Shown: positions 2,601 to 32,350, counted from the stretch's first letter. The stretch is DNA of 64,000 bases from Candidatus Nomurabacteria bacterium (GCA_943349945.1 CALQZS010000002.1:51278-115277), one strand, 5' to 3'. Program-made: numbers and translations. Notes: generated from the sequence alone by a model not told the origin.

Positions 2601-2636
2601 AGGCTATAGACAAAGTCATTGTATACTATATCACGT

Positions 2637-3998
2637 ATGCCCCTGCATCATACCGCAGAAAAAATCACCCACTGGTTGGACAGCTGGAATGTGGAGTCAA
2701 TTCTCGTCTCAAGTGCAGGTTTTTTAATATTGTTTGTGATGGCCGTACTTCTTGACCCAAGCGGAGTGTGGAATTTTTTTGTTGCACTTATAACCCTTAT
2801 GCCGTTTTGGCTGCCAGTGTTTCTTTCTATTGTGTTTTGGGTTATTTGGATGCACTACATCCGCTATCTGTTTTGGTTTAGCCACAACTATATAGTGCTC
2901 GAGGTGCAGCTGCCCCAAGAGGTAGAAAAGTCGCCCAAGGCGATGGAGACGTTTTTAACCGCGCTTTGGAATGCGGGTGGCGAGACTACCTTCCTTGCCC
3001 GCATATGGAAGGGCTCATACCGTCCCGTGTGGGCGCTTGAGATCGCCAGCAACGAAGGCAAGGTTGGGTTTTATATGCACATGCGCGACAGTTGGCGCAG
3101 TGTGGTGGAGGCGCGTTTGTACGGCTTGTTCCCCGACGCTAAAGTGTCCGAGGTAGAGGACTATGCGTCTAAAATAAAATTCAACCTCGACGAATATGAT
3201 TTGTTTGGCGCTGAGTATCAAAAACCTAGCTCAAACCCACACGCTCTGCCCATTAAAACCTACGTAGACTTTGGAATGGACAAAGATCCTAAAGAAGAGT
3301 TTAAAATCGACCCACTCGCCAACCTTATCGAGCTCTTGGCCCAAGTGGGCAAAGACGAGCATTACTGGTTCCAGATTGTGTTCCGTACCCGCAAAAAAGA
3401 CGAGTGGTACGGTTTTTACTTGCCAGGGGATGCATACAAAGACAAAGGCAAGGCAGAAATCCAAGCTATTATGGCCGGCGCCGCAAAGCGCGCCCAAGAT
3501 GTACTCAAGGCATCTGAAGTGGTAGAAGGGAAGGTGAGTTCGCTTTTGACCGATGGAGAAAAAAGGCGCGTGGACGCAATAGAGCGCAGTATGTCCAAAC
3601 TAGTGTTTGAATGCGGCTTCCGTGTGCTGTATTTAGCAAAAAAAGACCGTTTTAACGGCATCAATATACCCCAGTTGATACAGTTTTTTGCGCCGTTTAA
3701 CGGAGAAGGCTACGAACACAACCGGCTACACGTAACCCGTGGTATGGCCTTTTTTGACTACCCTTGGCAAGACTACAAAGACAGACGTAAACAAAAAATA
3801 AAGGAGCAGATTTTCTTTTTTTACAAACATCGGGCATACTTTTATGTGCCGTACGACCAGGAGCCATCTTTTCTGACTGTCGAAGAATTGGCAACGCTGT
3901 GGCACTTCCCAGGGTCGAGCATCAAAACACCAGGGCTTAACCGTGTGGCTGCACGCCGCGCCGAGGCGCCTCCCAATTTACCAACCTTACCTTCTTGA
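2637..3998 (+). CDS. hypothetical membrane protein (N-terminal TM helices plus a large soluble domain)
   Basis: A 454-aa ORF from ATG 2637 (the ORF track starts at TTG 2619). TATACT lies at 2622-2627, 9 nt before the ATG. No confident family assignment was possible. Confidence 0.65.
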   Translation: MPLHHTAEKITHWLDSWNVESILVSSAGFLILFVMAVLLDPSGVWNFFVALITLMPFWLPVFLSIVFWVIWMHYIRYLFWFSHNYIVLEVQLPQEVEKSPKAMETFLTALWNAGGETTFLARIWKGSYRPVWALEIASNEGKVGFYMHMRDSWRSVVEARLYGLFPDAKVSEVEDYASKIKFNLDEYDLFGAEYQKPSSNPHALPIKTYVDFGMDKDPKEEFKIDPLANLIELLAQVGKDEHYWFQIVFRTRKKDEWYGFYLPGDAYKDKGKAEIQAIMAGAAKRAQDVLKASEVVEGKVSSLLTDGEKRRVDAIERSMSKLVFECGFRVLYLAKKDRFNGINIPQLIQFFAPFNGEGYEHNRLHVTRGMAFFDYPWQDYKDRRKQKIKEQIFFFYKHRAYFYVPYDQEPSFLTVEELATLWHFPGSSIKTPGLNRVAARRAEAPPNLPTLPS

Positions 3999-4011
3999 TG
4001 TCTTTTGTTGT

Positions 4012-5022
4012 ATGAAAAAACAAGTAACGCATATCGGCGAAGTGTGTAATGAGTGGTGCCAAGAGTGGCGCATGTATGACCGCGTACTGCCGCTAGGGCT
4101 TTTGGCGGGGGTGCTACTGTTCCTTTTGTACTTTGTAACCATCTCTGCGCCACTGAACTTTCCTGGAGCCACGTACGTTAAGGTACCCAAAGACCAAAGC
4201 TTTGACGAAATCGCCCAAAACCTAGAGGAGCGCAACATCATCCGCTCGCCGCTGGCATTCCGTCTGTTCGCACGGCTCTATGGCCCACAAACACACCTGA
4301 TGAGCGGAGAGTACTTTTTCTCGGAGCCTATAACTGTAGTGGGTGTGGCGCGGCGACTGATGCGCGGCGATTTTGAATTGCTGCCCATTAAAGTAACCTT
4401 GCCCGAAGGCACCACCGCACAGCAAATGGCCGAGCTGTTGGCCAAAAAGATACCCGATTTTGACCACGAAGAGTTTCTTGAAAAAGCAAAACCAAAAGAA
4501 GGGTACTTGTTCCCCGACACCTACTTCTTTTTGCCCGGAGCCGAGGCAGACGAGGTGCTTGAAGTTTTGGAAGAAAACTTTACTCGCCAAATAAACGACC
4601 CGCGCGTACAAGAGGCGCTTGCAAAGTTCGACAAACCGCTGAGCGACGTTATCATCATGGCGTCCTTGCTGGAAAAAGAGGCAGCAAAAACAAAAGACCG
4701 TCAGATGATAGCGGGCATTTTGTGGAAGCGCATAGACATAAACATGCCGCTGCAAGTTGATGCTGTCTTCCCCTACATTATTGGCAAAAATACATTCAAC
4801 ATAACCAGAGCAGAACTGCGCACCGACTCGCCCTACAACACCTACACCAACAAAGGGCTGCCTATAGGACCCATCGCCAACCCTGGACTCGACTCTATTT
4901 TGGCGGCTATGACACCGGTTAAAACAAATTATCTTTTCTACCTATCCGACTTGAATAGCCAATTCCACTTTAGCCCTACGTACAGCGAACACTTGGCCAA
5001 ACAGCGCAAATACCTACCGTAA
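4012..5022 (+). CDS. mltG: endolytic murein transglycosylase MltG (YceG-like)
   Basis: An N-terminal TM segment and YceG motifs (YLFPDTY, LPIGPIANPG). Start was moved to ATG 4012 to avoid overlap with the upstream gene. Confidence 0.85.
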   Translation: MKKQVTHIGEVCNEWCQEWRMYDRVLPLGLLAGVLLFLLYFVTISAPLNFPGATYVKVPKDQSFDEIAQNLEERNIIRSPLAFRLFARLYGPQTHLMSGEYFFSEPITVVGVARRLMRGDFELLPIKVTLPEGTTAQQMAELLAKKIPDFDHEEFLEKAKPKEGYLFPDTYFFLPGAEADEVLEVLEENFTRQINDPRVQEALAKFDKPLSDVIIMASLLEKEAAKTKDRQMIAGILWKRIDINMPLQVDAVFPYIIGKNTFNITRAELRTDSPYNTYTNKGLPIGPIANPGLDSILAAMTPVKTNYLFYLSDLNSQFHFSPTYSEHLAKQRKYLP

Positions 5023-5025
5023 CTT

Positions 5026-5058
5026 AACTAACCCACAAGTCAGACTTGTGGGTTAGTT
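5026..5058 (+). terminator. rho-independent terminator after mltG
   Basis: A 16-bp inverted repeat (aactaacccacaagtc / gacttgtgggttagtt) followed by a T-rich stretch. Confidence 0.6.
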
Positions 5059-5094: not shown

Positions 5095-6162
5095 ATGTTT
5101 TGGCAGAAAAAGAAAAAAGGGACAGTGTTTGTAGGCCTCTCGGGTGGGGTAGACTCCGCCGTGTCTGCAGCACTGCTTCAAGCACAAGGCTACAAGGTGG
5201 TTGGCGTGTTTATCCGCATCAGCTTGCCTGGCTACCCCTGCACAGCCGGGGTCGACAAAATAGACGCCATGCGCGCCGCAGCACATCTAGGGATCCCATT
5301 TTTGGAGGTTGATTTGTCGAAGGAGTACGCCGCACAGGTTTTTGATACTACCCGCACCGAATACGCACACGGCAACACACCAAACCCCGACACGTTGTGT
5401 AATAGAGAGATTAAGTTTGGCGCTTTTTATGACTTTGCTAAAGCGCATGGTGCAGATTTTGTGGCAACAGGACACTACGCACAAACCAAAAACGGCAAGC
5501 TGTATGTAAGCGCTGATGATCAAAAAGACCAGAGTTATTTTTTGTGGATGATACCAGCGCACACTCTGCCGCATGTATTGTTTCCTGTAGGCCATTTGCG
5601 CAAACCTCAAGTGCGCGCTCTTGCAAAAAAATTTACACTCCCCAATGCGTCGCGCAAAGACAGCCAAGGTCTATGCTTTTTGGGTGACATCACCATAGAA
5701 GACATGCTCGCCCGCGAGATACAGCTCGTGCCCGGCCATGTACTCGACGAGCAGGGAGCTGTAGTGGGGCGGCACCAAGGTGTCCAACAATACACGCTGG
5801 GGCAGCGACACGGGTTTGTGTTGCACGCACAAACTCCAGACACCCTCCCGCATTTTGTAGTGAGCAAAGACATGGGCAACAACACACTGACAGTTTCCAC
5901 CAGTCCATATCCAAGTGGTGCGCAAACAACAGAGGTGTTGCTTCGCGAGGTGAATTGGTTAGGCGATGTGACCCCCGGACCATGCGAGGCGCGTTTTCGC
6001 TACCGCCAACCACTTCTTCAGGCAGAGCTTGTAGCAACTGGGCCCGAGGCACGGGTGCGCATACACGCGCCGCGACACATACCCTTGGGGCAATCCTTGG
6101 TGCTCTATAGTGGCGACCGGTGTCTCGGTGGCGGCACCGTTGCACAAACCACACTGCAGTAG
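5095..6162 (+). CDS. mnmA: tRNA-specific 2-thiouridylase MnmA
   Basis: A PP-loop (SGGVDSAV), catalytic Cys residues and full-length similarity to the MnmA/TrmU family. Confidence 0.9.
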   Translation: MFWQKKKKGTVFVGLSGGVDSAVSAALLQAQGYKVVGVFIRISLPGYPCTAGVDKIDAMRAAAHLGIPFLEVDLSKEYAAQVFDTTRTEYAHGNTPNPDTLCNREIKFGAFYDFAKAHGADFVATGHYAQTKNGKLYVSADDQKDQSYFLWMIPAHTLPHVLFPVGHLRKPQVRALAKKFTLPNASRKDSQGLCFLGDITIEDMLAREIQLVPGHVLDEQGAVVGRHQGVQQYTLGQRHGFVLHAQTPDTLPHFVVSKDMGNNTLTVSTSPYPSGAQTTEVLLREVNWLGDVTPGPCEARFRYRQPLLQAELVATGPEARVRIHAPRHIPLGQSLVLYSGDRCLGGGTVAQTTLQ

Positions 6163-6210
6163 TGGATAAGTATCGCGCTTTTGTAACAATAAAAAGCGTA
6201 TACTTTCAGT

Positions 6211-6624
6211 ATGGTAAAGCAGCAGGGAACCGCGATACTTATATTTTTTCTGCTTGCATTATTAGTAGGGTGGTGGAGTTTGCCAGAGGAACACACAAAA
6301 CCATATACTGCCGCACCAACACAGCCCAAAGAGACTCTGCCTATTAAACACACAAGCGCCAGCACGACGCACACCTACAGCGGCGAGCTACCTATGGTGC
6401 GTGACTGTGACTCTTTTTCTACAAAAATAGAGACCGCGCATAAAGAATCTTTGCATGCCACTTTGTCGTTTGTGATTACCACCTCTCACGCCTGCGACAC
6501 CAAAACCGCACCAGCGAGCTTTGCGGTTTCGCTGGCAAGTCAGGGCGCTATACCGCCCACTATTGACCACGTACTCTTAAACGGAAATCCAGTAGCGTTT
6601 CGTATTATAGAAGCGCAGCCATAA
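6211..6624 (+). CDS. hypothetical membrane-anchored or secreted protein
   Basis: A 137-aa ORF with an N-terminal hydrophobic segment. TATACT at 6199-6204 lies 6 nt before the ATG. Confidence 0.55.
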   Translation: MVKQQGTAILIFFLLALLVGWWSLPEEHTKPYTAAPTQPKETLPIKHTSASTTHTYSGELPMVRDCDSFSTKIETAHKESLHATLSFVITTSHACDTKTAPASFAVSLASQGAIPPTIDHVLLNGNPVAFRIIEAQP

Positions 6625-6628
6625 ATCT

Positions 6629-7486
6629 ATGTCTATCTTTGTTGCAAAATCAGATGGCACCACAGAGGCTTTTGACCCTGCTAAGCTGCGTGCGTCGCTT
6701 AAAAGAGCTGGCGCCGTACCGGACGAAATACATAAAGTAGTACAAACCGTAGAGAAAGACCTCTACAGCGGTATCACCACCACCGAAATATACCGCCGCG
6801 CATTCGCCTATTTGCGCGGACACAAACACACCGCCGCCGCACGTTACTCGCTGAAGCGGGCAGTGCTAGACTTTGGACCCTCTGGGTTTCCTTTTGAGGT
6901 ATACATGGCAGAACTTTTTCGCCTAGAAGGGTACAGCGCCTCGGTGGGCCAAATAATCCAAGGCGGATGCGTCGAACACGAAGTAGATGTGGTTTTGTCT
7001 GCAAAAAAATCTACCCCTTTGAGTAAAAAGAAAGATGCCACTAGCACCTACGTCGAGGCCAAATTCCACAACACCCTAGGACTCAAGACCGATCTTAAAA
7101 CAGTGCTGTACGTAAAAGCACGCATAGACGACATTCGTGCTGCAAATCCAGAGAAGCAAATTCGAGGAATGGTCGTAACCAACACCAAGTTTACCGAGCG
7201 GGCAGTCCAGTATGCTTCCTGTGTGGGGCTTGAGCTTTTGGGTTGGGAGTATCCACTTAAGGGCAACTTGCACGACCGCATAGAGGCAGCACAACTGTAC
7301 CCTGTAACCGCACTCACTACTTTGTCTAAAGGAGAAAAAATGGCTTTATTAAACGCCAAAAAAGTGCTTTGTACCGACTTACCCCAAAACACGGACCTTT
7401 TGCAGCAAATAGGCGTACGTGGCAGACGAGTGGACTCAATTTTGGAAGAAGTAGGGACGTTGTGCGTCTCGGGGAAAGAGATATAA
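6629..7486 (+). CDS. ATP-cone domain fused to an Mrr-type (PD-(D/E)XK) restriction endonuclease domain
   Basis: The N-terminus (MSIFVAKSDGTTEAFDPAKLRASLKRAG...) matches the ATP-cone consensus. The central region carries D...EVDVVL...YVEAKF, a PD-(D/E)XK (Mrr_cat-like) motif. Confidence 0.75.
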   Translation: MSIFVAKSDGTTEAFDPAKLRASLKRAGAVPDEIHKVVQTVEKDLYSGITTTEIYRRAFAYLRGHKHTAAARYSLKRAVLDFGPSGFPFEVYMAELFRLEGYSASVGQIIQGGCVEHEVDVVLSAKKSTPLSKKKDATSTYVEAKFHNTLGLKTDLKTVLYVKARIDDIRAANPEKQIRGMVVTNTKFTERAVQYASCVGLELLGWEYPLKGNLHDRIEAAQLYPVTALTTLSKGEKMALLNAKKVLCTDLPQNTDLLQQIGVRGRRVDSILEEVGTLCVSGKEI

Positions 7487-7525
7487 TCGTCGTACGGGCT
7501 CTTATTTACTTTTAACGACGCGCAT

Positions 7526-8155
7526 ATGGATAACAAGAATCAGAATAATCAGAAACCGGGTTTGTCATGGACGCAGCCTGCCTCCGCACCGCAAACAAAA
7601 ATACACGAGCAGCCACAAAAAAATCAAACTGCTCAAACTCCCACTAATGAGTCAAGCAACAGCAAGGTTGTTTGGATCGTCGGCGCCGTGGTGGTTTGTG
7701 TTATAGCAGCGCTTATTTTCATCGGGCAGCGCGACAAGTCTGGCTCCACTGCATCAAATGCCACCACTACTGCTACAAAAACAGAACGTAAAACTGATGC
7801 AACAGAACCTACGACCGTAACCCCCGTCGTTGGCAGCATGGAAGGTTTGACTGTACCGTCTCCTCAAGATGCCGGAATGGAAGTGTTAGTAGAGGTAGAG
7901 TCTGTGCCTGCACCAACTTGGATTGTTGTGTATGAAAACAATAACGGCAAACCAGGCAACGTATTGGGTGCTGCATTCTTTACACAAACGATCAACAGCG
8001 ACTCTGTAAGCTTGCTGCGCGGCACACAACCAGGACGCACTTACTTTGTCGGCAAGACACACGACGACGGCGACCGTAAATATGCACTCGACGTCGACCC
8101 TGTAGTTCGCGACGACGAGGGTAACCCCGTGTTGGTAGAATTTACTACCCGATAA
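7526..8155 (+). CDS. hypothetical membrane-anchored protein (low-complexity N-terminus, single TM)
   Basis: A 209-aa ORF with a Q/T-rich N-terminus followed by a TM helix. Confidence 0.55.
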   Translation: MDNKNQNNQKPGLSWTQPASAPQTKIHEQPQKNQTAQTPTNESSNSKVVWIVGAVVVCVIAALIFIGQRDKSGSTASNATTTATKTERKTDATEPTTVTPVVGSMEGLTVPSPQDAGMEVLVEVESVPAPTWIVVYENNNGKPGNVLGAAFFTQTINSDSVSLLRGTQPGRTYFVGKTHDDGDRKYALDVDPVVRDDEGNPVLVEFTTR

Positions 8156-8158
8156 TAT

Positions 8159-8638
8159 ATGCCTGACTTCACCCAATTCACCTCGTCCTTTGGTTTTGTA
8201 GAAATGACCTTTGCGTGGCGACTTGTGGTTGCTATGGTGCTGGGCGCTTGTTTGGGGCTTGAGCGCTCCTTGGCAGGCAAGCACGCAGGCATGCGCACCT
8301 ATTCACTGGTGTCGCTTGGCTCAGCCACGCTGGTAATTGTAGGGACACTGGCGAGCTATCAGCTGTCTATGTTTTCTGGCGTAAACCCGCTGCAAATTGC
8401 CGGGTCTATAGTCATCGGTATCGGCTTTATCGGCAGTGGCCTAGCAGCATTGCGTGGCGACCATCCCGCAGAGCTCACCACTGCAGCTGGCATTTGGGCA
8501 GTAGCGGCCATAGGCATGGCATGCGGTTTTGGACTCTACATCATCGCTATAACCGCAACAGTACTGAGTATTATCGTGTTTACTTTCTTGTCTAAATTGG
8601 AGTACCGCCTACGTACTCAGTGGGGCAAAGACAATTAA
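8159..8638 (+). CDS. mgtC: MgtC/SapB family membrane protein
   Basis: The N-terminal motif (LVVAMVLGACLGLERSLAGKHAGMRTYSLVSLGSA) is typical of MgtC. Confidence 0.8.
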   Translation: MPDFTQFTSSFGFVEMTFAWRLVVAMVLGACLGLERSLAGKHAGMRTYSLVSLGSATLVIVGTLASYQLSMFSGVNPLQIAGSIVIGIGFIGSGLAALRGDHPAELTTAAGIWAVAAIGMACGFGLYIIAITATVLSIIVFTFLSKLEYRLRTQWGKDN

Positions 8639-8683
8639 CTTCCGCCTACGCGGTTCCTGGCGTACAATAGGTAACACAAACCT

Positions 8684-9520
8684 ATGAGCCAATACTACAA
8701 ACCGCATCGCAAACCAGACTACAACTACGGCGGGCCAAAGTGGACACTGTCGCGCTCGAAGATTGACCTCTTTATGGAGTGCGCCCGCTGTTTTTATATC
8801 GATAACAAGCTGGGCACTGCACGGCCACCAGGGTATCCCTTTAACCTAAACAGCGCCGTTGACGCATTGCTTAAAAAAGAACTCGATACGCACCGCGCAA
8901 ACGGCACACAACACCCGCTGGCAGCAGCTTATGGTCTCGATGCTATACCGCTTGCGCACGCACGGATGGACGAGTGGCGAAATGCGCTGAGCCAAGGCGT
9001 TAAGTGTATCCATAAACCAACCGGCCTCACTGTGCGCGGCGGCGTGGACGATATCTGGATAAACAAAGCGGGCGAGCTTATTGTCATAGACTACAAAGCA
9101 ACTAGTAAGGACGGAAAGATTGAGTCACTGGACGAAGAGTGGCATCGTGGGTACAAACGCCAGCTCGAGATATATCAGTGGCTTTTGCGACAAAACGGTT
9201 TTGCGGTGTCTGATACTGGCTACTGGTTTTATGCAAACGCAACCAAAGACCGCGAAGCGTTTGACGCACGACTCGACTTCGAGCTCACCTTGGTGCCCTA
9301 CACCGGCACCACTGACTGGGTCGACGGAGTGCTTATTGAGCTAAAGAAGTGTCTCGATAGCGACACACTGCCCGATGCGGGCGTTGATTGCGATTATTGT
9401 AAATACCGCAGCGCGGTTGAAACTGTACTTGGCAATAAGCCACAGGCCGCACCAGCGCCTATTCCAGTAGCCGCAAAACAAACCCATGCGACAGAAACCC
9501 CGAACGGACAGCTTTTCTAA
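8684..9520 (+). CDS. PD-(D/E)XK nuclease, Cas4/RecB-like with four Cys (standalone)
   Basis: VIDYK ((D/E)xK) motif, N-terminal CxxC (ECARCFY) and C-terminal CxxC (DCDYCKY). This architecture is like Cas4/AddB-type nucleases. No cas genes lie nearby. Confidence 0.65.
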   Translation: MSQYYKPHRKPDYNYGGPKWTLSRSKIDLFMECARCFYIDNKLGTARPPGYPFNLNSAVDALLKKELDTHRANGTQHPLAAAYGLDAIPLAHARMDEWRNALSQGVKCIHKPTGLTVRGGVDDIWINKAGELIVIDYKATSKDGKIESLDEEWHRGYKRQLEIYQWLLRQNGFAVSDTGYWFYANATKDREAFDARLDFELTLVPYTGTTDWVDGVLIELKKCLDSDTLPDAGVDCDYCKYRSAVETVLGNKPQAAPAPIPVAAKQTHATETPNGQLF

Positions 9521-9803
9521 ACCAGAAAAAGCAGCGAAAGTATTTACCAGCGATTTTGCAAAGCGCGTGTACGCTGTGGTGGCCAAAATCCCCAAAGGCA
9601 AAACCATGACGTACAAGCAAGTCGCCGCCAAAGCAGGGAAGCCAGGTGCCGCGCGGGCAGTGGGTATGTTTATGATGCACAACTACAATCCAAAAATCCC
9701 TTGCCACCGCGTCATACGCTCCGACGGCAAGCCGGCCGGATACAACCGCGGCGGCCCAAGTAGAAAAATAGAAATCTTGCGCGAAGAAGGGTATCAGTTT
9801 TAA
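9486..9803 (+). CDS. ogt: methylated-DNA-protein-cysteine methyltransferase (MGMT/Ogt C-terminal domain only)
   Basis: The active-site motif IPCHRVI is present. The start is uncertain (ATG 9486 overlaps the upstream gene; an alternative GTG lies at 9567). Confidence 0.75.
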   Translation: MRQKPRTDSFSKPEKAAKVFTSDFAKRVYAVVAKIPKGKTMTYKQVAAKAGKPGAARAVGMFMMHNYNPKIPCHRVIRSDGKPAGYNRGGPSRKIEILREEGYQF

Positions 9804-9810
9804 TACACAC

Positions 9811-10482
9811 ATGGACACTATACGCCTTGAAGACTCTTGGAAGAAACATCTGGAGCCTGAGTTTGCGCAATCCTACTTCCAGAAGCTCCGCACCTTTGTG
9901 CACGACGCATACACACAAAGCACCGTATACCCACCGCCCAAAAATCTATTTCGTGCGTTTGACCTATGCCCTTTCGACCAAACAAAGGTGGTGATATTGG
10001 GCCAAGACCCATACCACGGACCAGGGCAAGCAAATGGCCTGTGCTTTGCAGTAGAAGGGGACACGCCGCTGCCGCCGTCGCTGCAAAATATTTTTAAAGA
10101 AATCGAAAAAGAGTACGGCGTGCCTATGCAAAATAAAAACGGCGATCTTTCGCGCTGGGCTGCACAGGGGGTACTGCTTTTAAATGCGACACTCACCGTG
10201 GGGGCACGCTCACCTGGCTCGCACCAGCGCAAAGGCTGGGAAGAGTTTACCGACGCTGCAATACACGCACTATCGAAAGAGCGCGAGGGGTTAGTATTTA
10301 TGTTGTGGGGCAACTATGCAAAAAACAAAGGTGCGCACATTGACCGTAAAAAACATTTGGTGCTTGAGGCGCCACACCCGTCGCCTTTTTCTGCACACAG
10401 CGGATTTTTTGGCTGCGGCCACTTCAAACTCGCGAACGAATATTTAGCCGCGCACGGCAAAAAACCAATTGACTGGCTCTAA
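9811..10482 (+). CDS. ung: uracil-DNA glycosylase (family 1)
   Basis: Motifs GQDPYHGPGQA and HPSPFS. Confidence 0.9.
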   Translation: MDTIRLEDSWKKHLEPEFAQSYFQKLRTFVHDAYTQSTVYPPPKNLFRAFDLCPFDQTKVVILGQDPYHGPGQANGLCFAVEGDTPLPPSLQNIFKEIEKEYGVPMQNKNGDLSRWAAQGVLLLNATLTVGARSPGSHQRKGWEEFTDAAIHALSKEREGLVFMLWGNYAKNKGAHIDRKKHLVLEAPHPSPFSAHSGFFGCGHFKLANEYLAAHGKKPIDWL

Positions 10483-10517
10483 AAAACTAACGTAGTCAGA
10501 CTACGTTAGTTTTTTAC
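10482..10517. terminator. bidirectional rho-independent terminator between ung and pepO
   Basis: A perfect 11-bp inverted repeat (ctaacgtagtc a gactacgttag) flanked by an A-run and a T-run. Confidence 0.75.
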
Positions 10518-31671: not shown

Positions 31672-32350
31672 TAGGGGTGGCGAGGGTAGTAGGATTTCCA
31701 CCTACAACTCCGGGTCCCGAACCTGGCGTTTTGTTTTAAACTACACCCCCAAAAGAAGCTTGCTTTACCTGAAGATCGCTTCGATCATGGTTTGGAGTTT
31801 TTCGGCTAGACTCTTAAGTTTTCTTTTTAAACTTACGGGGACTACCCGCATCACCGAGTGGCTGGATACAGTCGCTGAAGCATCGTTCGCAAAGACGCTG
31901 TGCGTCTGTTTTATGATATATTCTCGTGATAAACGGGTTACTACCCCCAGAGAACAACCCATTGATGGTGTTCAGATCGGTCAGTGCTGCAATAGCTGCA
32001 GATGCCGAACGGTACAGGGATGGTGTTTTCGCAGTACTTCTCGACACCTGCAAAGGCAGTGGATTCGGTACCCCAAAGACATGCGCGAGCGGAGTCGGCT
32101 CACCTTTGGTGCAAAATCCGTCGAGACACAGAATGATCCTGCCGGATTCATCCCTCACACACAGCCGCAATCCTCTAGACTCAGTCCCGCGTGGTTCTGT
32201 CCAACAGGGCAGTATCTGCAACACCCATCGCTTTACCGTAGACCCCGCAGCAACGTGGAAATGGGTGGTTACTCCTTCACGAGGAGAGACGCGCGGCATG
32301 TTCATAACGAACCCCTTTCTTGTTCAACTAAAATCACAATACATACTAAA
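31672..32350 (-). other. GC-rich apparently non-coding island, candidate structured RNA of about 0.7 kb (identity unresolved)
   Basis: Long ORFs appear in five of six frames but with non-protein-like composition. GC3 is not elevated and rare codons are present. A minus-strand promoter-like TTGACT...TATGTA lies near 32350-32380 and a minus-strand terminator at 31642-31671. Confidence 0.4.

What the first reader, a model, noticed from the sequence alone, without database searches (positions are those of the whole stretch)
6629..7486. ATP-cone domain fused to an Mrr-type PD-(D/E)XK restriction endonuclease domain
Residues 1-90 match the ATP-cone, the allosteric nucleotide-sensing module of ribonucleotide reductases and NrdR. 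The remainder carries an Mrr_cat-like nuclease core (D-x(n)-E-x-K with VDVVL and YVEAKF). Fusion of a (d)ATP sensor to a DNase suggests a nuclease gated by nucleotide pools. This is a plausible anti-phage or conflict effector that responds to dNTP perturbation during infection. It is followed within 3 kb by a Cas4-like nuclease, an MGMT and a UDG.
Basis: partly seen in the sequence, partly recalled or inferred. Interest (0 to 1): 0.7.

Follow-up and report, generated by a model that had tools for sequence, protein, structure and literature searches.

The report
ATP-cone-fused nuclease, not a defence gene
This gene encodes a DNA/RNA-cutting enzyme fused to an ATP/dATP-sensing module; it belongs to a very large, uncharacterised family found in archaea and several bacterial phyla, and it sits among housekeeping, stress and nucleotide-recycling genes rather than anti-phage genes.

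Summary
ORF 6629-7486 (+, 285 aa) carries an ATP-cone (Pfam E=4.8e-11) and an Mrr_cat PD-(D/E)XK nuclease (E=4.6e-7), both above Pfam's curated cut-offs. The catalytic residues E90/D120/E143/K145 are invariant in 267 relatives. The ATP-cone residues that contact nucleotides in NrdR are kept with identical spacing.

The defence reading is not supported. The target has no PADLOC hit. There are no relatives in 50,697 phage records or 2.9 million viral contigs, and only 2 in 72,556 plasmids. In Patescibacteria the gene sits in a fixed housekeeping block, with mnmA upstream in 53/60 loci. In Bacteroidota, Chlamydiota and archaea its recurrent neighbours are a β-CASP RNase, an AMP-phosphorylase-like enzyme, PRPP synthetase, dCTP deaminase, universal stress proteins and P-type ATPases.

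The most likely function is an adenine-nucleotide-gated endonuclease acting on the cell's own nucleic acids, for turnover and nucleotide-pool homeostasis; a repair role is the main rival.

The only solved structure of the family (AF1548, PDB 1Y88) is an N-terminally truncated construct. It lacks the ATP-cone and the first catalytic Glu. No paper on this fusion was found in the held library.

The parts
6629..7486 (+). Complete ORF (285 aa plus stop) with three domains: ATP-cone, PD-(D/E)XK nuclease, (HhH)2
6629..6868 (+). ATP-cone domain, residues 1-80 (Pfam match 4-75). Putative nucleotide contacts are V5, K7 (6647-6649), E13, F15 and K19 (6683-6685).
6875..6898 (+). Junction motif G83-P-S-G86-F-P-F89-E90, the most conserved stretch of the family. 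It joins the last ATP-cone helix to the first catalytic helix; E90 is at 6896-6898.
   Evidence: G83, G86, F89 and E90 are invariant in 147/147 representatives and 120/120 close relatives. This motif was the peptide pattern usable for the genome scan.
6884..7243 (+). PD-(D/E)XK (Mrr_cat / AF1548-type) nuclease core, residues ~86-205. Catalytic residues are D120 (6986-6988), E143 (7055-7057) and K145 (7061-7063). C114, H117, E118, R165, D168, T184, N185 and C198 are also conserved.
7262..7483 (+). C-terminal (HhH)2-type domain (AF1548-like_C), residues ~212-285
5095..10482 (+). Context: putative co-directional transcription unit. It runs mnmA (5095-6162), orf137 (6211-6624), target, membrane protein orf209 (7526-8155), mgtC (8159-8638), PDDEXK_1/Cas4-like nuclease (8684-9520), MGMT-family (9486-9803), ung (9811-10482).
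   Evidence: Gene calls and Pfam. Short or overlapping intergenic gaps. Synteny is conserved across Patescibacteria. The unit itself is inferred, not shown.
5026..5058 (+). Context: strong hairpin (15-bp stem) upstream of mnmA, sharing AACTAAC...GTTAGTT arms with the hairpin after ung
   Evidence: 2 matches, 0 expected by chance
10480..10516 (+). Context: strong hairpin (17-bp stem) between ung and the convergent M13 peptidase gene; likely end of the unit

Best explanation
The gene encodes a three-domain enzyme. An N-terminal ATP-cone binds adenine nucleotides (ATP, dATP, possibly ADP). It is rigidly joined through an invariant GPxGFPFE junction to an active PD-(D/E)XK endonuclease. A C-terminal (HhH)2 module holds the nucleic-acid backbone without sequence specificity.

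By analogy with RNR and NrdR, nucleotide binding to the cone is proposed to change the oligomeric state or the position of the first catalytic helix, which carries E90. That would switch cleavage on or off according to the cell's adenylate or dATP status.

The enzyme is proposed to act on the cell's own nucleic acids as a chromosomal housekeeping or stress function. It would open up RNA or DNA for a partner 5'-3' exonuclease: a TTHA0252-type beta-CASP RNase in Bacteroidota and Chlamydiota, or a Cas4-like PDDEXK_1 nuclease in Patescibacteria. The released nucleotides could then be recycled through an AMP-phosphorylase-like enzyme and PRPP synthetase.

Shown here: the domains, the intact catalytic and ligand-contact residues, the family's breadth, and the non-defence contexts. 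Inferred: ligand identity, direction of regulation, substrate (DNA or RNA) and physiological role.
For: - Domains and fold.
- Catalytic tetrad E90/D120/E143/K145 invariant in 147/147 representatives and 120/120 close relatives.
- ATP-cone positions equivalent to NrdR V48/K50/E56/F58/K62 are kept with identical spacing: K7 145/147, F/Y15 145/147, K19 140/147, E13 102/147.
- The junction motif is the family's most conserved stretch. The model's pTM of 0.89 implies fixed packing between domains.
- The architecture is constant in 391 clusters at 50% identity and across Archaea, Patescibacteria, Bacteroidota and Chlamydiota.
- Contexts: Patescibacteria show fixed housekeeping synteny. Elsewhere a beta-CASP gene lies directly downstream, often overlapping, in 12/26 loci. 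The full cassette with an AMP-phosphorylase-like gene and PRPP synthetase is in 5/26, including Pontibacter and Criblamydia plasmids from different phyla.
- Cassette partners identified as a TTHA0252-like RNase (E=3e-79), an AMP-phosphorylase-like enzyme (4GA5 E=1e-104; TIGR03327 506 bits) and a PRK07199 PRPP synthetase.
- Archaeal-type loci add AMPpase-like genes (6 loci) and a dCTP-deaminase-like gene directly upstream in L115, L117 and L118.
- Many CPR lineages lack nucleotide biosynthesis and use an AMP-phosphorylase nucleoside pathway (PMC5113843).
- In NrdR, exchange of ATP, dATP or ADP on the cone drives large oligomeric rearrangements (PMC9110341).
Against: - No biochemical data exist for any family member, and no literature was found.
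- The Arg that follows the cone's Lys in RNR and NrdR (R51) is not conserved in bacterial members, where it is A or S. Ligand preference may therefore differ.
- The beta-CASP and AMPpase links are absent from all 65 Patescibacteria loci and cover only a minority of the other loci (beta-CASP 14/68, AMPpase-like 11/68). The salvage role may hold for only part of the family.
- Patescibacteria synteny spans many unrelated housekeeping genes, so adjacency there says little about function.
- HhH domains usually bind dsDNA, whereas the tightest partner outside Patescibacteria is an RNase-type enzyme. The substrate is unresolved.
- Loci were sampled from best-80 lists, and neighbours were partly called with a crude ORF finder.
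Confidence: 0.5

Rival explanations
1. DNA-repair or recombination endonuclease. On this reading the protein is a structure-specific or damage-associated DNA nuclease. Its nuclease-plus-(HhH)2 layout parallels XPF/Mus81/Hef, and its core resembles NucS/EndoMS. Its activity would be licensed by dATP/ATP status so that cutting is coordinated with the availability of dNTPs for repair synthesis.
For: - The C-terminal (HhH)2 resembles the Rad51 N-domain and Pol X.
- In Patescibacteria, a Cas4-like nuclease (37/60), MGMT (29/60) and UNG (11/60) follow downstream on the same strand.
- An ATP-dependent DNA ligase lies in the same gene block in 4 archaeal-type loci, and a dCTP deaminase lies directly upstream in 3.
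Against: - Outside Patescibacteria the tightest partner is an RNase-type beta-CASP enzyme with nucleotide-catabolic genes, plus Usp, glycolysis and ATPase genes, not repair genes.
- No clamp-binding motif or NucS N-terminal domain is present.
- The ERCC4 signature of XPF/Mus81 is absent, and the Pfam match is to Mrr_cat.
- The repair neighbours in Patescibacteria belong to a long syntenic block of unrelated genes.
Confidence: 0.25
2. Anti-phage or conflict effector. On this reading it is an Mrr-like or abortive-infection nuclease, switched on when phage infection perturbs dNTP/ATP pools.
For: - The Mrr_cat domain is typical of type IV restriction enzymes.
- The core fold resembles those of MspJI, AspBHI and FokI, and of the ligand-gated defence nucleases Card1, Can2, Cdn1, NucC and Cap4.
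- A sensor domain fused to a nuclease is a common design in defence systems (established knowledge).
Against: - No PADLOC model matches the protein.
- No defence family recurs among 116 neighbours in 20 Bacteroidota loci.
- The whole 64-kb window is housekeeping.
- The gene has a fixed syntenic position across relatives at about 37-100% identity in Patescibacteria, unlike the patchy, mobile distribution of defence genes.
- It is absent from phage genomes and viral contigs and present on only 2 of 72,556 plasmids. Both copies lie in a metabolic cassette.
- There is no modified-DNA reader domain and no partner methyltransferase.
Confidence: 0.1
3. Non-catalytic, NrdR-like nucleotide-responsive DNA-binding regulator. 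On this reading the nuclease fold and the HhH domain serve only to bind DNA.
For: - The ATP-cone is closest to those of NrdR.
- One source names a relative 'transcriptional regulator NrdR family protein'.
- PD-(D/E)XK folds have been recruited as DNA-binding modules in other proteins (established knowledge).
Against: - All four catalytic residues are invariant in 267 sequences spanning 36-100% identity. That is not expected for a domain that has lost catalysis.
- There is no Zn-ribbon.
- No RNR genes were seen next to the gene in any sampled locus.
Confidence: 0.05

Closest known systems
AF1548 of Archaeoglobus fulgidus (PDB 1Y88; Pfam AF1548-like_C PF22357)
   Different: The deposited structure covers only residues 92-265 behind a tag. 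It therefore lacks the ATP-cone and the first catalytic Glu. It is annotated as a protein of unknown function and no activity is known. Archaeal members keep the canonical KRDG cone motif, whereas the window protein has KSDG.
ATP-cone of NrdR and of ribonucleotide reductases (PF03477)
   Same: Same fold: 1.6-1.9 A over ~82 residues to E. coli NrdR. The inner- and outer-site contact residues are kept with identical spacing: V5/K7/E13/F15/K19 correspond to NrdR V48/K50/E56/F58/K62. Allosteric control through nucleotide-dependent oligomerisation is the expected mode of action.
   Different: The output domain is a nuclease, not a Zn-ribbon DNA binder or an RNR catalytic subunit. The R51 equivalent is not conserved in bacterial members. 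The gene is not linked to RNR genes in any sampled locus.
Mrr (type IV modification-dependent restriction endonuclease; Mrr_cat PF04471)
   Same: The catalytic domain matches the Mrr_cat profile above its cut-off, and the D...ExK core is present.
   Different: It has no N-terminal winged-helix reader of modified DNA, no defence-island context, and no PADLOC match. It has extra ATP-cone and (HhH)2 domains.
Ligand-gated PD-(D/E)XK nucleases of CRISPR type III and CBASS (Card1, Can2, Cdn1, NucC, Cap4)
   Different: The sensor here is an ATP-cone, not a CARF or SAVED domain or a cA3 pocket. The presumed ligands are housekeeping adenine nucleotides, not cyclic oligoadenylates. No CRISPR or CBASS genes are nearby.
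NucS/EndoMS and XPF/Mus81/Hef structure-specific repair nucleases
   Different: It has no NucS N-terminal domain or clamp-binding motif. It has no ERCC4 signature, and the Pfam match is to Mrr_cat. It carries an ATP-cone, which none of these have.

Membership tests
ATP-cone / AF1548-type nuclease / (HhH)2 family (uncharacterised; annotated 'ATP cone domain-containing protein' or 'restriction endonuclease') | Full-length three-domain architecture of about 260-290 aa | tested here: met
   The window protein aligns end to end with hundreds of members.
ATP-cone / AF1548-type nuclease / (HhH)2 family (uncharacterised; annotated 'ATP cone domain-containing protein' or 'restriction endonuclease') | Invariant GPxGFxFE junction and catalytic residues E...D...ExK | tested here: met
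   G83, G86, F89, E90, D120, E143 and K145 are all present, and invariant family-wide.
ATP-cone domain (PF03477) | Profile match above the curated cut-off, and the beta-hairpin plus four-helix fold | tested here: met
   43.5 bits against a cut-off of 25.8. Superposes on NrdR cones at 1.6-1.9 A.
ATP-cone domain (PF03477) | Binds ATP/dATP | not testable with these tools
   Only residue conservation at the NrdR contact positions could be checked. K7, E13, F15 and K19 are kept; the R51 equivalent is lost.
Mrr-type (type IV) restriction endonuclease | Mrr_cat catalytic domain | tested here: met
   30.4 bits against a cut-off of 21.
Mrr-type (type IV) restriction endonuclease | N-terminal reader domain for modified DNA (winged helix or SRA-like) | tested here: not met
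   The N-terminus is an ATP-cone, and no other domain is present.
Mrr-type (type IV) restriction endonuclease | Defence role or defence-island context | tested here: not met
   PADLOC has no hit for the protein and only singleton hits among neighbours. Contexts are housekeeping or metabolic. There are no phage or viral copies.
NrdR transcriptional repressor | N-terminal Zn-ribbon followed by an ATP-cone, with linkage to RNR operons | tested here: not met
   There is no Zn-ribbon; the cone is N-terminal and is followed by a nuclease. No RNR genes were seen in the sampled loci.
CARF/SAVED-nuclease effectors (Card1, Can2, Cap4) | CARF or SAVED sensor domain, with CRISPR type III or CBASS association | tested here: not met
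   Only the nuclease cores match. No PADLOC hit.
NucS/EndoMS | N-terminal dimerisation/DNA-binding domain and C-terminal clamp-binding motif | tested here: not met
   The match covers only the ~110-122-residue catalytic core.
Cas4 (for the neighbour at 8684-9520) | Score at equivalog level and CRISPR-cas context | tested here: not met
   TIGR00372 scores 30.4 bits against a cut-off of 65. No cas genes are in the window. It is best described as a PDDEXK_1 family nuclease.

The most novel reading that the evidence does not exclude
This family may be the first enzymatic output of the ATP-cone outside ribonucleotide reduction. It would be an ancient endonuclease, shared by archaea and bacteria, that reads the adenylate/dATP state and licenses breakdown of the cell's own RNA or DNA. 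The breakdown products would feed a salvage route: beta-CASP exonuclease, then NMP (AMP-type) phosphorylase, then PRPP synthetase. In nucleotide-auxotrophic Patescibacteria the gene would be a fixed core gene controlling nucleotide supply. In Bacteroidota and Chlamydiota it would belong to energy-stress or dormancy islands.
Probability: 0.3. Interest if true: 0.75.

Novelty: new variant of a known kind. Interest (0 to 1): 0.5.

Why it matters
ATP-cones have been studied experimentally only as regulators of ribonucleotide reductase, either of the enzyme itself or of its repressor NrdR. This family is very large: at least 6551 clusters at 90% identity in one branch alone and at least 597 species genomes, across Archaea, Patescibacteria, Bacteroidota and Chlamydiota. 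In it the same sensor is hard-wired to an intact nuclease.

If the cone gates cleavage, this would be a new way of coupling nucleic-acid degradation to energy or dNTP status. That is relevant to how ultra-small, nucleotide-auxotrophic CPR bacteria manage their nucleotide supply, and to stress or dormancy physiology in other phyla.

The work also corrects the record on PDB 1Y88. The family's only solved structure is a truncated product of a mis-started gene model, which probably explains why the family has stayed 'function unknown'. Cultured hosts exist (Pontibacter roseus DSM 17521, P. ramchanderi LP43, P. actiniarum DSM 19842, Chitinophaga eiseniae, Psychroserpens ponticola), so the question can be tested directly.

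Tried and rejected
- A single-sequence PDB search with the ATP-cone segment returned only designed helical-repeat proteins, a low-complexity helix artefact. A family profile was needed to reach NrdR and RNR.
- NCBIfam and PADLOC have no model for the protein.
- The 41-sequence alignment was too divergent for the genome scan. A 9-sequence alignment worked.
- Five literature searches (ATP-cone or 'ATP cone' with restriction endonuclease, nuclease, defence or endonuclease; AF1548; AMP phosphorylase, beta-CASP and TTHA0252) found no paper on this fusion or on the cassette.
- The sigma-70 promoter scan found 8 sites against 8.1 in shuffles, so it is uninformative.
- I first treated AF1548 as an ATP-cone-less archaeal relative and the cone as a bacterial add-on. 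Searches showed that the native archaeal proteins carry the cone and that the crystal construct is truncated, so I rejected this.
- I considered that the neighbouring Cas4-like, MGMT and UNG genes mark a defence or conflict island. I rejected this because they are part of a long, conserved housekeeping syntenic block without cas genes.
- I looked for RNR or NrdR genes in the window as a functional link and found none.

Full report
**1. Observation**

Pfam gives an ATP-cone at residues 4-75 (E=4.8e-11; 43.5 bits, cut-off 25.8) and Mrr_cat at residues 86-198 (E=4.6e-7; 30.4 bits, cut-off 21). It also gives a sub-threshold AF1548-like_C match at residues 224-275 (19.6 bits, cut-off 23.9). The quoted motifs exist: HEVDVVL at 117-123 and YVEAKF at 141-146. 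The PD-(D/E)XK set is E90, D120 and E143-x-K145.

- a PDDEXK_1/Cas4-like nuclease at 8684-9520, far below the Cas4 equivalog cut-off and with no cas genes nearby;
- an MGMT-family protein at 9486-9803;
- a family-1 uracil-DNA glycosylase at 9811-10482.

NCBIfam and PADLOC have no model that matches the target.

**2. Structure**

The protein is therefore ATP-cone plus PD-(D/E)XK nuclease plus (HhH)2.

**3. Conservation**

The exhaustive search of 1.84 billion representatives found 1147 hits (E<=1e-3). Of these, 391 have E<=1e-30, and almost all of the best 150 are full-length at 270-290 aa.

Over 267 aligned relatives at 36-100% identity, E90, D120, E143 and K145 are invariant: 147/147 representatives and 120/120 close relatives. 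G83, G86, F89, G112, R165, D168 and P225 are also invariant.

In S. coelicolor NrdR the cone contacts nucleotides through V48, K50, R51, E56 and F58 (inner site) and K62 (outer site) (PMC9110341). With identical spacing the window protein has V5, K7, S8, E13, F15 and K19. Across the family:

| Position | Conservation (of 147 representatives) |
|---|---|
| K7 | 145 |
| F/Y15 | 145 |
| K19 | 140 (plus 4 R) |
| E13 | 102 |
| R51 equivalent (position 8) | replaced by A or S in bacteria |

The archaeal members examined (P0391, P0407, P0410 and alignment A5) keep the KRDG-type motif.

The most conserved stretch of the whole family is the junction GPxGFPFE. It runs straight from the last cone helix into the catalytic helix that carries E90. 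The last cone helices move by up to 6 A when ATP and dATP exchange in NrdR. This is therefore a plausible direct allosteric path, but it is an inference.

**4. The solved structure is truncated**

A search with the AF1548 core returned archaeal relatives from Archaeoglobus, Geoglobus, Ferroglobus, Korarchaeota, Bathyarchaeia, Aenigmarchaeota and Nanoarchaeota. Nearly all are 260-280 aa and carry an ATP-cone.

P0391 is 265 aa. It begins MLRVRKRDGRLEEF... and contains GPSGFGFE89. Its residues 92-265 match residues 24-197 of the 1Y88 chain with a single substitution, and the start of that chain is a tag remnant (...FQGHM). The crystallised 'AF1548' is therefore a product of a mis-started gene model, and it lacks both the ATP-cone and the first catalytic Glu. 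The three-domain architecture is thus universal in the family, not a bacterial elaboration.

**5. Distribution**

The best 80 loci are 60 Patescibacteria and 20 Bacteroidota. They include the cultured Pontibacter roseus DSM 17521 and P. ramchanderi LP43.

A search seeded from the Criblamydia protein gave at least 6551 clusters at 90% identity. They include Chlamydiia, Chitinophaga eiseniae and Psychroserpens ponticola.

No relative exists in 50,697 phage records or 2.9 million IMG/VR contigs. Only 2 of 72,556 plasmids carry one.

**6. Context in Patescibacteria**

The window comes from MAG GCA_943359535.1. Relatives at 57-66% identity share the same gene order: LeuRS, sigma70, a small gene on the opposite strand, DUF8128, YceG, (a small gene), MnmA, target, a membrane protein, MgtC, PDDEXK_1, MGMT, UDG, an M13 peptidase, AlaRS.

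Counts across 60 Patescibacteria loci (41-64% identity):

| Neighbour | Loci with it (of 60) |
|---|---|
| mnmA (directly upstream) | 53 |
| YceG | 45 |
| DUF8128 | 43 |
| sigma70 | 41 |
| PDDEXK_1 | 37 |
| AlaRS | 33 |
| MGMT | 29 |
| MgtC | 25 |

Eleven more metagenome loci show the same block.

The rest of the window is core machinery: ribosomal proteins, rpoA, dnaK/dnaJ/grpE, aminoacyl-tRNA synthetases, scpAB, dnaB, recR and rmuC. It contains no RNR, no NrdR and no defence genes.

Two strong hairpins with shared arms (AACTAAC...GTTAGTT; 2 matches, 0 expected) bracket mnmA..ung. They suggest one transcription unit, which is an inference.

This is the signature of a vertically inherited core gene, not of a defence island.

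**7. Context elsewhere**

None of the Patescibacteria neighbours occur in the 20 Bacteroidota loci. Among 116 flanking proteins there, the recurrent Pfam families are as follows:

| Family | Proteins (of 116) |
|---|---|
| Usp | 9 |
| MBL / beta-CASP / RMMBL | 7-8 |
| P-type ATPase | 4 |
| CBS | 3 |
| HlyD | 3 |
| PEP synthase / PPDK | 2 |
| PRPP synthetase | 2 |
| Thymidine-phosphorylase family | 2 |

PADLOC gave only singleton matches among these neighbours.

The two plasmid copies are Pontibacter actiniarum (Bacteroidota) and Criblamydia sequanensis (Chlamydiota). Both carry the same tightly packed cassette: target, then MBL-fold hydrolase, then thymidine-phosphorylase-family protein, then ribose-phosphate pyrophosphokinase. 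In Criblamydia the genes overlap, and the cassette is flanked by a P-type ATPase, phosphoketolase, glycogen phosphorylase and acetate kinase.

The cassette partners were identified as follows:
- a TTHA0252-type beta-CASP ribonuclease (E=3e-79);
- an archaeal-type AMP-phosphorylase-like enzyme. Its best PDB hits are 4GA5/4GA6 at E=1e-104, which from my own knowledge are T. kodakarensis AMP phosphorylase. It scores 506 bits on TIGR03327, just below the 535 cut-off, and passes NF003338 and TIGR02645;
- a PRK07199-subfamily PRPP synthetase.

Counts over 26 non-Patescibacteria loci, with none of the three cassette partners in any of 65 Patescibacteria loci:

| Neighbour | Loci (of 26) |
|---|---|
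| beta-CASP, downstream on the same strand | 12 |
| P-type ATPase | 9 |
| Usp | 7 |
| AMPpase-like plus PRPP synthetase | 5 |

Further long contigs add PFK, GAPDH, 2-hydroxyacid dehydrogenase, a DeoC-family aldolase, MgtC and CstA. In Pontibacter roseus the gene lies next to a CBS-pair protein and nuoA/nuoB.

In 42 archaeal-type and other metagenome loci of at least 5 kb:
- AMPpase-like genes occur in 6 loci, adjacent to the target in L120, L134 and L136;
- a dCTP-deaminase-like gene lies directly upstream in L115, L117 and L118;
- an ATP-dependent DNA ligase is in the same block in 4 loci.

No defence genes were evident in these loci.

**8. Interpretation**

The evidence supports an active, adenine-nucleotide-sensing nuclease.

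The recurring theme outside Patescibacteria is nucleic-acid and nucleotide catabolism or salvage, and energy stress. Many CPR lineages lack nucleotide biosynthesis, and some use an AMP-phosphorylase nucleoside pathway (PMC5113843).

I therefore favour a nuclease gated by ATP, dATP or ADP that opens endogenous RNA or DNA for a partner 5'-3' exonuclease. The partner would be beta-CASP in some lineages and the Cas4-like PDDEXK_1 nuclease in Patescibacteria. The role would be nucleotide-pool homeostasis (confidence 0.5).

The main rival is a repair or recombination nuclease coordinated with dNTP supply (0.25). It is supported by the NucS-like core, the (HhH)2 domain, and the neighbouring MGMT, UNG, ligase and dCTP-deaminase genes. 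The defence reading (0.1) and a non-catalytic regulator (0.05) are unlikely. About 0.1 is left for functions not considered here.

Ligand identity, the direction of regulation, and the substrate (DNA or RNA) are all untested.

**9. Novelty**

Databases already annotate the architecture, as 'ATP cone domain-containing protein' or 'restriction endonuclease/ATP cone/AF1548-like'. No paper in the held library treats it. The ATP-cone literature that was read describes the cone only as a regulator of RNR and NrdR. I rate it a new variant of a known kind: a sensor-gated PD-(D/E)XK nuclease with an unprecedented sensor and a non-defence role.

**Caveats**
- Loci come from best-80 lists, so they are biased towards close relatives.
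- Lineage labels rest on the deposited record titles.
- Neighbour ORFs were called with a simple longest-ORF routine.
- Model coordinates could not be inspected for inter-residue distances.

Noticed in passing
PDB 1Y88 against P0391 (archaeal homologue); corresponds to window residues ~92-285: The only solved structure of the family (AF1548) is an N-terminally truncated construct: native residues 92-265 behind a tag. It lacks the ATP-cone and the first catalytic Glu. The original gene model appears to have been started at an internal codon.
   Followed up: yes
window 5026-5058 and 10485-10511 (+): Two strong hairpins share the outer arms AACTAAC...GTTAGTT and a CAGA loop region (2 matches, 0 expected by chance). 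They bracket the mnmA-to-ung gene run. They may be a repeated terminator or REP-like element of this genome.
   Followed up: partly
window 31681-31750 (-): Rfam calls a tRNA here (47.1 bits) that ARAGORN does not report. The D-arm and T-loop look atypical, and the anticodon loop reads as CGG (Pro) by eye. It lies in the only GC dip of the window (30-32 kb, GC 0.43), next to ~1 kb with no convincing ORF.
   Followed up: partly
L007 1-1321; L008 1-1621; L009 1-2069 (LeuRS genes of related Patescibacteria): The leucyl-tRNA synthetase upstream in the syntenic block carries an extra hydrolase domain in some relatives: HAD in L007 (1014 aa) and NUDIX in L008 and L009 (959 and 938 aa). The LeuRS of the window's own genome (802 aa in L001) shows no such domain.
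   Followed up: no
window 9486-9520: The PDDEXK_1/Cas4-like ORF and the MGMT-family ORF overlap by 35 nt. The overlap is conserved in relatives (L001, L004, L006-L009), which suggests translational coupling of a nuclease with an alkyltransferase. The MGMT is a short (105 aa) C-terminal-domain-only form that keeps the PCHRV active site.
   Followed up: partly
window residues C114 (6968-6970) and C198 (7220-7222), with H117 and H147: A Cys pair is conserved in 140/147 representatives each, and is also present in AF1548. H117 and H147 are conserved nearby. This may be a disulfide, redox or metal site in the nuclease domain. Distances could not be measured.
   Followed up: no
L090 1972-6597; L091 6995-11602; L032, L071, L079, L172: A conserved four-gene cassette occurs in Bacteroidota, Chlamydiota and an unassigned seawater contig: ATP-cone nuclease, TTHA0252-like beta-CASP RNase, AMP-phosphorylase-like enzyme, PRK07199-type PRPP synthetase. 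No description of it was found in the literature searched.
   Followed up: yes
L095 7883-9600 (Psychroserpens ponticola): tblastn finds beta-CASP similarity starting 333 nt downstream of the target, but only an 84-aa gene is called there, followed by a ~1.5-kb stretch with no gene. This is probably a decayed beta-CASP partner gene.
   Followed up: no
window 8159-8638 (mgtC); L095 3304-4572: MgtC-family genes lie near the target in Patescibacteria (25/60 loci) and again in Psychroserpens (MgtC fused to DUF4010). P-type ATPases recur in 9/26 non-Patescibacteria loci. This may indicate a link to Mg2+/ATP homeostasis.
   Followed up: no
window 2619-3998 and 3943-5022: The DUF8128 ORF and the longest YceG/MltG ORF overlap by 56 nt in the window. 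In some relatives the two are called as separate genes (for example L003 and L005). The YceG start codon in the window is therefore probably further downstream.
   Followed up: no
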